Below, piece by piece: positions 4,090 through 7,267 of a DNA stretch of 64,000 nucleotides. The notes below the pieces were generated by a model, which searched no databases, had not been told where the DNA came from, and was given only the letters and a program-made list of their open reading frames with translations. Both the position numbers and the translations under genes were made by a program. This stretch comes from Eledone cirrhosa. Taxonomy: Eukaryota. The stretch spans positions 357,306,001-357,370,000 of the forward strand of contig OZ024740.1 of the NCBI GenBank assembly GCA_964016885.1, in the 5' to 3' direction. Each line of letters begins with the position of its first letter. Position 1 is the stretch's first letter.

Positions 4090-5473
4090 TCACCTCTTCG
4101 TCTCATGGGGACTAGGCTGCACAATTTCCATGGGGGTGTTGGAGGGGTTGTTTGGTGGGGTGGTGGTCTCTGGCGGGGTGGGGACGGAGATGTTTGGTGG
4201 GGAGGGGGTGTCAGGTGGAGTGGGGGTGGGGGTGGGAGTGCCTGGGGTGGGGGTGGGGAAACATTTCAAAAGGACGCGGTTATAGGGTTTGACGCAGGGG
4301 TTACCTACGTCGTTAGGAAATTTTTCTTTCAACTGTTTATGTGTGTCCATGGAGATCCTAATCATTTTAAGACTAGGATTCTCCGCAGAGTGTGTAAAAG
4401 TTTTCCCTTCGGTCTCCACCGAAGGGTTTTTATATATGGTGTCTGTTAAAGTTTTATTGTTAGTATTTATGTAGGTGTAACATTTTTGTTGTGTTGTGTT
4501 GCTTTTTTTCTGTGGTTCTTGTGTGTGTTTACATTTTGCAGTAGGTGTTTTGTTTTCAGGAGGGGGTGTTTTTGTTTGTGCTGTTTGCGTCGCTTGTATT
4601 GGTGTTTGTGTGTTTGTTGCATTTTCGTTTATGTTATGACTTTTCTTTTTTCTTTTTACTGGTCGGAAAGGCTCTCCCTCATCATCACTGGGTGACGATG
4701 ATGAGGCCTCATCCGTGTTGTTGGGGAGGGGTACATTTTGAGGAGCTGTTATGTGTGTAGGTGTTTCTGGAGTTGTTTTAGGTGGGGAGGGGTTGGGTGG
4801 GACTGTGTTTGCAGTTTGGTTTGTTTTTGTGTGTTGTTGTTGTTGTTGTTGTGGTGGTGGTGGTGGTTGTGTTGTTGTTGTGTTGGGTGTCGGCAGTAGT
4901 GCCTTTTTTTTACTGCAGTTAATTGAGGACAGGAAACCCTCAGGTGACCACTACTTAAACAGTGGTAACATGAAGGCCGCCTACCCTCAACAGAAATGTT
5001 TATGTAGGAATTTCCATCCAGAGGCACACGTTGTGGTATTCTAGCTATCCGTTCTGGTCTCATTTGGACCAGAACTTCTAAGCTTGTACCGTTGAATATG
5101 CCCCTGGAGGACTTTCCTACCGAAATTACTGTGTCTTCATCAAAATTGATGAAACCAGCTATTATTCACCAGATGTTTACATTTGGTGTGATATTTGTTA
5201 TTTTTATTTTTTGGCTCCTTTTTCCCATGTATGTGGGGGAAAAGGTGTAGAGGGGGACACAATTAGCGACACAGAATATTTCTGTGCCGTCAATTGGTCT
5301 TTCATTATTATTGATAAACTCCCGAAGAGTTTTCCCTTCTGTATGAAGGCAATGTCCTTCATAGAGTTTCTTAGAACCAGCTCAATTTCGTTTCGAGTTA
5401 ATTGAGCTGGTTTTCTGGTGGTATTTGAGATTGTCCTAAAAACTATGGTCTTCAGTACAGTGTCTCTACGCAA
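4090..5473 (-). pseudogene. Tx1 ORF1 (gag-like nucleic-acid-binding protein), frameshifted
   Basis: ORF pieces 5204-5473, 4749-5063 (CYHCLSSGHLRVSC = CX2CX4HX4C) and 4090-4419 (Pro/Thr-rich tail) lie directly upstream of ORF2. Confidence 0.75.
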
Positions 5474-5486
5474 TTCTAGATAGATA

Positions 5487-7146
5487 TATTTCTTTATTTA
5501 CCATAAAGGCATAAAAAGAAGGGACAAATACAAAGGGGGAGTTTACATAAAACCGAGTAAAAAGGGTATAAAATGAAAATAATCAAAAACAACCTCAAAA
5601 GGGAGGGGACGTGATGGGGGTTGCACACACCCCCGAAAAAGTGTGCAATCCTTTGCCCAGGGAGCACATGGAGAAGGTGCTCCCCTCTCCTTCACTTCTT
5701 TACCTACAGGATGGTATACAGAGAAGGCCCATTTACACGAGCAATTCTCGCCACTATCACCCACCTTTCATAAAACTGCCTGTGGCCAAGCACCTCTCTC
5801 TCCATTCTTATCCTTCTTCCGAAGCGATATCGGAAGAAGTAGACCAGACTATGGCCAGAGAGGAAGTTGCCTGACCTTAGACCTTTCAATCGTGTCCGCA
5901 AAACAACTTCTTTCAACATGGCTATTACGCACAGAAAAACCGCCTTTGCTTCCTTTGTAAAGAGGGGAGGCGGCTTGATTGTCATCACGGACTCGGCGGT
6001 CAATCGAATCGGCGCCACCCGCGACAGCAGTCGTTCGGCGTAACCCCACAGATCAGCCACGCCCGGACATTGCACCAATCCGTGCGCAACGGTTTCTTCG
6101 TGACGCACGCATCTAGGGCAAATCTTTTTCGAGGGATCCCTGCCCGGGCGCCCGTGTCTGTAGAGCTTTTCTCGAACGAGTAGAGCCCCTCGGTAGCACT
6201 GCCAGGCCAGTGACTTCTGGAAGTTGTCCATTGGTCCCGGGCCGAAAGTCCTACCGAACAGGCTGGCCAGTTCGTCCTTTTCCATGTCCAGTGACTCTCC
6301 AAGGGTGTCATCGCCCCTGCTAGCCACCAGCCCTCTATAGAATGACGAGGTGGATTCTCCACCGGTGGCCGGGTCCGCTTGCCAGAGAGCCCTGAGCGCC
6401 TGGATACACTCAGTGTGCCAGTCGCCCAGTTTTCCGGATCTTTGCTTGACCCAGGACTGCAGCTCGGTGAGCGAGACGAGTCTGGAAAGGCTCGTCTCAC
6501 GAACGGAGCCCACACCGGTTGACCAGTGAGGAATACCTGTAGGTGCCGTAGCCTTAATGCGTACCTACGCATCATCAACCACGGCATCCCCAGCCCTCCT
6601 TTCGAAGGTTGTTGGCAGCAGATGGATCTTCTCACCATAGGAGGGCGCTTTTTCCAAAGAAATTGAAAGAGCATGCGTTCCATGGTGGTGAGTGTTTCCT
6701 TAGGGCAAGGCACGACAGTCAGGCGGTAGTAGGTGACGGACGCTATGTAAATGTTCGCCACCTCCGCCCGACCTTTCAGGGACAGCTTACACTTAGCCCA
6801 TTTCTGGGTCAGTGCAAACACCTTGCTCGTAACCTCGCCCCAGTTCTTTTCCACCTGGAGGTCCGGTCCAAACCAGACCCCAAGCAACTTCACCGGGCCC
6901 TCCGTCCAGTGTCCGACGACACCGTCGGGAGGCATCGGTCTGCCTCTCCACGTTCCGAGTTGCAGCCCGATGGATTTTTCCCGGTTCAGTTTCGCTCCTG
7001 ACAACCTTTCGTATTCCTTCAGTAAGGTGCCGATCACCTCGATCTCCGAGTCGGTCGATACCATTACTGTTACGTCATCGGCGTAGGCCGACACCGCTTT
7101 CCTCAATCCTGGTTCCAGGGGGATACCCTGCAACAACTCCAACTTG
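5487..7146 (-). mobile_element. 5'-truncated Tx1 copy (E2): RT C-half to 3' end, with 19-bp target-site duplication
   Basis: ORFs 6000-7142 (SAYADDVTV) and 5704-6513 are homologous to E1, with one frameshift near 6485. Flanked by identical ACGCAATTCTAGATAGATA at 5468-5486 and 7147-7165. Confidence 0.93.
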
Positions 7147-7267
7147 ACGCAATTCTAGATAGATAGACAGACAGACAGACAGACAGACAGACAGACAGAC
7201 AGATAGATAGATAGATAGATAGATAGATAGATAGATAGATAGATAGATAGATAGATAGATAGATAGA

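What the first reader, a model, noticed from the sequence alone, without database searches (positions are those of the whole stretch)
5468..7165. 19-bp TSD shows the insertion geometry and order of the GATA-targeted element
Seen: ACGCAATTCTAGATAGATA is exactly duplicated on both sides of E2. It consists of 10 nt of E1's 5' end plus 9 nt of the GATA array, and E2 has almost no tail of its own. Inference: the priming nick was made on the GATA strand about two repeat units into the array, and the second nick ~19 nt away inside E1, so E2 is younger than E1. Because the array edge was used, only ~2 units appear to be needed on one side of the nick. TSDs are normally invisible inside microsatellites, so this junction is unusually informative.
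Basis: partly seen in the sequence, partly recalled or inferred. Interest (0 to 1): 0.72.

Follow-up and report, generated by a model that had tools for sequence, protein, structure and literature searches.

The report
Real 19-bp retrotransposon target-site duplication
A young jumping gene landed at the edge of a GATA repeat next to an older relative and is flanked by the same 19 bases on both sides, likely the ordinary scar of its insertion; 28 other copies carry a similar 15-22-base scar, so this site is typical of the family, not special.

Summary
Observation confirmed. The 19-mer is exact at 5468-5486 and 7147-7165 and occurs nowhere else in the 3.0-Gb genome. It spans E1's 5'-truncation point. 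AGAATTGCGT is internal ORF1 sequence of E1's family, about 750 nt from its true start, so the 'universal leader' rival fails. A duplicated one-off junction makes E2 the later insertion; divergence agrees.

Both elements are two-ORF, APE-type non-LTR retrotransposons of the L1/Tx1 group (clade not placed on a tree). At least 1,483 copies share E2's 3' end. Of 128 copies with both junctions, 32 gave an anchored duplication and 28 of these measure 15-22 bp (median 19).

Two claims weaken. Two units are not a minimum: a single TAT(C/A)T suffices, sometimes with no array. The junction is not unusual: 15 of 71 unselected copies show a readable duplication, and edge insertions occur at the chance rate.

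This is ordinary target-primed retrotransposition; the family's measured target motif and TSD length are a modest addition. No empty allele was found.

The parts
5468..5486 (-). TSD copy at E2's 3' side (sense TATCTATCT+AGAATTGCGT): 9 nt of array plus the first 10 nt of truncated E1
7147..7165 (-). TSD copy at E2's 5' side, identical 19 nt
7146..7146 (-). one extra base (C on the sense strand) between the TSD and E2's native sequence; likely untemplated or a later substitution
   Evidence: 29 other copies read ...TGA(G/A)G before (A/G)AGTTGG
5487..7145 (-). E2: 5'-truncated copy (last 1.66 kb of a 5.8-kb element): end of RT, zinc-binding domain, 3' UTR; ORF2 remnant in two frames
5487..5498 (-). 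E2 3' end, AATAAAGAAA+TA, no poly(A) and no repeat tail
452..5477 (-). E1: older sister family (77.5% identical to E2), truncated in ORF1 about 750 nt from the family's start; ORF1 with a CCHC knuckle; ORF2 (endonuclease, RT, zinc-binding domain) broken into four frames; ends AATAAAGAAA+TT
7166..7265 (+). rest of the target array: (GACA)n next to the TSD, then (GATA)n
7266..7508 (-). E3: 3'-end fragment of a third sister family in the same orientation
377..451 (+). degenerate GATA array at E1's 3' end
7510..7588 (+). GATA array at E3's 5' side

Best explanation
The 19 bases duplicated around E2 are likely the target-site duplication left when E2, a young L1/Tx1-group non-LTR retrotransposon, inserted across the already existing 5'-truncation junction of the older E1. 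Shown: the duplicate covers a junction found nowhere else in the genome, and E2's relatives carry 15-22-bp duplications that begin 2 nt after AATAAAGAAA at TAT(C/A)T. Inferred from the standard target-primed (TPRT) model: the APE endonuclease nicked the GATA strand at ...AGATA-3'OH|GACA, 9 nt from E1; that end primed cDNA on an RNA ending ...AAUAAAGAAAUA, probably with a few bases of pairing; the other strand was cut 19 nt away, 10 nt inside E1; synthesis stopped after 1.66 kb and was joined with one extra base. The target is likely a short motif, (T)C|TAT(C/A)T-N-T, that GATA arrays supply in bulk, not an array of set length.
For: Junction unique in the genome. AGAATTGCGT-like sequence is internal in 29 of 29 other E1-family loci; that family's true start is about 750 nt upstream. 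It is absent as an exact word from 82 of 82 full-length E2-family copies, which begin ATCTAGCTG. Anchored duplications in 32 of 128 E2-family copies, 28 of them 15-22 bp, median 19, against 13 of 1,500 mismatched pairs. In 17 copies not selected on their tail, positions +1..+7 read T17 A17 T16 (C13/A4) T17 A14 T17. The 2 nt after AAAGAAA differ from the target upstream (L063, L155, L233), are linked to internal variants (best P 9e-7 among 24 columns) and are TT in E1 and in 6 of the 12 E1-family loci where such an end was found, so they belong to the element. E2 is 96.1% (median; best 97.7%) identical to 106 relatives; E1's same region is at best 94.8% identical among 20 loci.
Against: No empty allele with a single 19-mer was seen in six runs (short contigs and reduced-representation reads, so weak). 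Nicks are inferred, not assayed. If the RNA carries UAU beyond its last UA, the first nick could lie up to about 3 nt further in and the true TSD be 16-19 bp. 96 of 128 copies gave no anchored duplication; those inspected mostly have both junctions in repeat, but some have rearranged 5' ends. E1's relatives were picked by the 5' region, so the age comparison is not like for like. One chimera (L172) joins a 76%-diverged E1-like ORF1 piece to E2-family RT within about 4 nt of the same ORF1 position, with no TSD found.
Confidence: 0.93

Rival explanations
1. Template jump: while E2 was being copied, the reverse transcriptase switched to an E1-family RNA, copied 10 nt and joined the array, so the match is not a TSD.
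For: A chimera of E1-like ORF1 and E2-family RT exists at L172 with its joint near the same ORF1 position.
Against: The jump would have to end on exactly the base where the neighbouring E1 is truncated; that junction occurs nowhere else. The length and register equal the family's modal TSD.
Confidence: 0.03
2. Internal deletion or universal leader: E2 once began with its own AGAATTGCGT and lost the middle.
For: 27 of 82 full-length E2-family copies hold AGAATTGCAT (1 mismatch) about 400-450 nt from their start.
Against: No exact match in 82 of 82; the near match is followed by GAC, not by the base seen, and is not homologous to E1's break. Both families have other true starts. It needs a truncation, a substitution and a 3.7-kb deletion that together copy E1's junction.
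Confidence: 0.02
3. It is a TSD, but shorter (10-15 bp): E2's RNA carried one or two TATC units that were copied, so the first nick lay at the very edge of the array.
For: The 9 repeat bases cannot be assigned from this junction alone; 59 of 72 unselected copies have TATCT after the 2-nt end.
Against: Where the target has no TATC unit (L071, L081, L194, L233) none was added, and 28 anchored lengths measured from the element end cluster at 15-22, leaving little room for a variable tail.
Confidence: 0.1
4. Assembly artefact or local segmental duplication.
For: Repeat-dense region; the locus was not bridged by any independent contig.
Against: E1 and E2 are only 77.5% identical and belong to separate families; an artefact would not reproduce the family's TSD geometry.
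Confidence: 0.01

Closest known systems
Kibi ((TC)n) and Koshi ((TTC)n) of teleosts; crocodilian Tx1 families in (TTCC)n/(TTTC)n (PMC4494074, passages and section 15; PMC3812793, passages)
   Same: APE-type non-LTR elements that sit in one microsatellite in fixed orientation.
   Different: Target here is (TATC)n/(GATA)n, which the list in PMC3812793 does not include; preference is loose (some sites have no array); host is likely an octopod. Relationship on a tree not tested.
SINEU-3 / Tx1-Mar tandem insertions sandwiching a TSD (PMC4494074, passages)
   Same: Sequential insertions next to an earlier copy; a 16-nt TSD is given there.
   Different: Target there is a Mariner DNA transposon; here a microsatellite motif, and the stacked copies are different sister families.
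Human and zebrafish L1 (PMC2912911, PMC6007223, passages)
   Same: TPRT with a staggered second nick, 5' truncation, occasional extra bases at the 5' junction, short degenerate nick motif. L1 ORF2p is the best solved-structure match (E 3e-51).
   Different: L1-clade TSDs are 7-18 bp, mostly 13-15 (PMC6007223 citing Ichiyanagi and Okada 2008); here 15-22, median 19. No poly(A) tail here; the motif is TC|TATCT rather than TT|AAAA; ORF1 has a CCHC knuckle.
[quoted passage not shown]
   Same: Reading junctions and order from an insertion into an older element is an established method.
   Different: Applied here to array edges and sister elements in an invertebrate.
Tx1L of Xenopus (PMC1919474, passages; the primary paper PMC85248 is not held)
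   Same: Endonuclease reported to read about 10 bp around the first nick, in line with the short motif here.
   Different: Targets the Tx1D transposon. A 23-bp TSD is recalled, not checked.

Membership tests
Target-site duplication by TPRT | Direct repeat abutting both ends of the element | tested here: met
   0 nt from the 3' end, 1 extra nt at the 5' end
Target-site duplication by TPRT | Repeat is target DNA, not element DNA | tested here: met
   spans a junction unique in the genome; absent from 82 of 82 full-length E2-family copies
Target-site duplication by TPRT | Length and register shared by other copies | tested here: met
   28 of 32 anchored copies at 15-22 bp, median 19; control 13 of 1,500
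Target-site duplication by TPRT | Empty site with a single copy | tested here: inconclusive
   none seen in six runs, none bridging the locus; no related genomes held
APE-type non-LTR retrotransposon, L1/Tx1 group | ORF2 with N-terminal APE endonuclease, RT and C-terminal zinc-binding domain | tested here: met
   natural 1,156-aa ORF2: PF03372, PF00078, PF13966 (the last 26.9 bits, just under its 27.5 cut-off); L1 ORF2p best PDB match over residues 7-866
APE-type non-LTR retrotransposon, L1/Tx1 group | Separate ORF1, 5' truncation, no LTRs | tested here: met
   ORF1 of about 640 aa with one CCHC knuckle; 45 of 71 unselected copies reach the 5' end, the rest are truncated or rearranged
Tx1 clade | RT groups with named Tx1 elements on a tree | not testable with these tools
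   no named Tx1 sequence was returned; the label rests on anatomy and recall
Tx1 clade, microsatellite-specific (Kibi/Koshi type) | More than 20% of flanks in one repeat type (criterion in PMC4494074) | tested here: met
   59 of 72 unselected 3' flanks begin TATCT; 39 of 71 lie in arrays of 8 or more units
Kibi or Koshi proper | (TC)n or (TTC)n target | tested here: not met
   1 of 72 flanks begins TCTCT
Tx1 clade, microsatellite-specific (Kibi/Koshi type) | Endonuclease cuts the repeat in vitro | not testable with these tools
   needs a cleavage assay

The most novel reading that the evidence does not exclude
Microsatellite 'targeting' in this family is not array recognition: a 7-nt motif on the duplicated side (TAT(C/A)T-N-T), set partly by pairing of the tail-less RNA end with the nicked strand, plus a second cut about two helical turns away, defines the site. 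Each insertion then copies a usable motif into its own TSD, which drives head-to-tail stacking of sister families whose order can be read from the duplicated junctions.
Probability: 0.35. Interest if true: 0.5.

Novelty: new member of a known kind. Interest (0 to 1): 0.3.

Why it matters
The single junction adds little: TSDs and ordering by nested insertion are textbook. Its use is as an entry to family-level numbers that are usually hidden in microsatellites: TSD about 19 bp, a fixed start 2 nt after AATAAAGAAA, and a 7-nt motif. A 2013 review (PMC3812793, passage) calls the mechanism of microsatellite targeting by APE elements not well understood; a young, high-copy family with a defined motif gives direct substrates for testing endonuclease choice against RNA-primer pairing.

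Tried and rejected
Empty allele in public runs: one search listed 10 runs, six were laid; no joined form, no contig bridging the locus; uninformative.

Preference for array edges: tested on 109 copies; 9 of 60 in long arrays within 3 units of the downstream edge against 9.9 expected; left/right asymmetry P 0.23 overall, 0.08 for 74 full-length copies; rejected. An apparent excess of short downstream runs vanished with a mismatch-tolerant count.

First TSD caller passed 33 of 400 control pairs; replaced by a stricter one.

A degenerate pattern for similar junctions was malformed and missed even this locus; redone.

E1's own TSD: not resolvable, both sides in repeat.

Named Tx1 relatives: two protein searches gave only two cephalopod or mollusc names.

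Earlier scan notes by place and by sequence: nothing. PMC85248 not held. No structure prediction was run; it would not bear on the TSD.

Full report
1. Observation. The 19-mer is exact at 5468-5486 and 7147-7165, and 0 of 100 shuffles give two matches at up to 3 mismatches. On the minus (sense) strand the order is E3, (TATC)n(TGTC)n, TATCTATCT-AGAATTGCGT, one extra C, E2, AATAAAGAAA-TA, TATCTATCT-AGAATTGCGT, E1. E1 (452-5477) and E2 (5487-7145) are 77.5% identical over 1.69 kb. They carry pieces of RT and a zinc-binding domain, and E1 also a weak endonuclease match.

2. Is the repeat target DNA or element DNA? The 17-nt core occurs twice in 3.0 Gb, both here, and the E2-side junction once. With one mismatch three more places appear; two are chance matches at the 5' ends of other truncated copies, one is unrelated, and none continues into E1's ORF1. 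The first 18 nt of E1 occur 61 times. In 29 of 29 other loci examined that stretch is preceded by more ORF1, and the family's real start lies about 750 nt upstream. So E1 is truncated here and the 10 nt are no leader. E2's family starts ATCTAGCTG and 0 of 82 full-length copies hold AGAATTGCGT. A one-mismatch word in 27 of 82 is at a non-homologous place with a different next base. A junction made once, at E1's insertion, and now present twice can only have been copied later.

3. Family geometry. At least 1,483 places carry E2's exact 3' 25-mer. I examined three sets: S1, the 39 closest relatives of E2's 5' part (38 kept, one lacked a 3' end); S2, 21 copies chosen for a 3' flank like E2's (19 kept, two too short to align); S3, the first 74 places on C1 less two already in S1 (72; 71 kept). 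A strict caller found anchored duplications in 6 of 38, 11 of 19 and 15 of 71, against 13 of 1,500 mismatched pairs. Counted from 2 nt after AAAGAAA and without 5' microhomology the lengths are 15 (3), 16 (4), 17 (1), 18 (3), 19 (6), 20 (5), 21 (4), 22 (2), plus four outliers (30, 35, 50, 50) in repeats; median 19. This locus sits on the mode. The other 96 are unanchored; of those printed, most have both junctions in repeat and some have rearranged 5' ends (part's output was cut).

4. Where the element ends. The 2 nt after AAAGAAA are TC in 37 and TA in 34 of 72 S3 copies. They differ from the target just upstream of the duplication in informative cases (L063, L155, L233). They are linked to internal variants (best Fisher P 9e-7 among 24 columns, 110 sequences) and read TT in E1 and in 6 of the 12 E1-family loci where such an end was found. 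So they are element-encoded. Where the target lacks TATC (L071, L081, L194, L233), no TATC was added. 'Almost no tail' is right, and the first nick is placed within about 3 nt of TC|TATCT; the slack remains because RNA-encoded UAU could not be told from target.

5. What the target is. In the 17 anchored copies not selected on tail, positions +1..+7 are T17, A17, T16, C13/A4, T17, A14, T17, and -2/-1 are T13 and C12. The zero point was set on the element end, so +1..+3 may reflect primer pairing as much as cutting. Among the 28, four have no TATC unit on the duplicated side, nine none on the other, three none on either. In S3, 17 of 71 sites hold two units or fewer in all, though some of these have rearranged 5' ends, while 39 of 71 lie in arrays of 8 or more. 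So two units are not a minimum; arrays are favoured, likely because they are dense in the motif. Edges are not favoured: 9 of 60 against 9.9 expected. The layout seen here recurs: in 5 of 29 clear cases (the 28 plus L087, added by hand) an older sister element begins 10-12 nt from the nick; four of the five are from the selected set S2.

6. Order. Besides the junction logic, E2 is 96.1% (median) and 97.7% (best) identical to 106 relatives; the same part of E1 is at best 94.8% identical among 20 loci (E1's relatives were chosen by the 5' region). E1's ORF2 is in four frames, while at least 10 examined E2-family copies keep 1,156 codons. E2's nick lies 9 nt from E1, so likely inside E1's own TSD.

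7. Mechanism. Shown: sequences, uniqueness, length distribution, motif. Inferred from TPRT (PMC2912911 and PMC1919474, passages): first nick on the GATA strand at AGATA|GACA, priming on the tail-less RNA end, second nick 19 nt away inside E1, early stop after 1.66 kb, joining with one extra base. Against: no empty allele was found, and one chimera without TSD has its joint near the same ORF1 position, which keeps a template jump at a few percent.

8. Comparison. ORF2 has APE, RT and zinc-binding domains and matches human L1 ORF2p best among solved structures; ORF1 has a CCHC knuckle. The closest named RT is from Argonauta hians (68%); with the genome size this suggests an octopod host (inference). 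L1-Tx1 families are listed as recently active in Octopus vulgaris, with no word on targets (PMC13282606, passages; 'target' has 0 hits in the main text, supplements not read). It works like Kibi, Koshi and the crocodilian Tx1 families (PMC4494074, passages and section 15; PMC3812793, passages) but has another target; Tx1 membership was not tested on a tree. L1-clade TSDs peak at 13-15 bp (PMC6007223, passage), so 19 is longer but not out of kind; SINEU-3 shows sequential insertions around a 16-nt TSD (PMC4494074, passage). I found no paper on a GATA/TATC-targeting Tx1 family in seven searches (listings only, except the six papers cited). Kojima and Fujiwara 2004 and Repbase were not consulted and could hold one. 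Five earlier scan notes already describe GATA targeting in this or similar genomes; they are leads, not support.

9. Verdict. The minimum-units and rarity claims do not hold. Interest 0.3.

Noticed in passing
window 43977-62874: A 19-kb tandem array of a 15-bp unit (AACTACTGTTGTTGT, about 1,277 copies, 93% matches). The unit is a multiple of three and would read Thr-Thr-Thr-Val-Val on the minus strand, so a mucin-like exon or a satellite.
   Followed up: no
window 39121-39958: Two more 3'-end fragments of sister families between three GATA arrays, same orientation as E1-E3.
   Followed up: no
L172:3534-6231 (sense coordinates): Chimera of a 76%-diverged E1-like ORF1 piece and E2-family RT, joined near the same ORF1 position as the end of the 19-mer; no TSD found.
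   Followed up: partly
L135 and L207; L155 and L168: Unlinked E2-family copies truncated at the same base (reference positions 4528 and 994): truncated source copies or break hotspots. L207 also has a second copy with the same start directly after its TSD.
   Followed up: partly
L226 and L229: Two copies about 230 kb apart share a non-repeat 3' flank: a 3' transduction or segmental duplication.
   Followed up: no
L191 and L192: Insertion into a 31-bp satellite that holds one TCTATCTAT motif, at two places 15 kb apart.
   Followed up: partly
L084, L086, L207, L224 5' flanks: Four unlinked insertions share the same upstream flank, so another repeat ending in TATC units is a recurrent target.
   Followed up: no
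E2 family, first 74 places on C1: 45 of 71 copies reach the 5' end, a high share for a LINE, and at least 10 of the copies examined keep an unbroken 1,156-codon ORF2: a young family. Full-length copies often carry 1-7 extra bases between TSD and start.
   Followed up: partly
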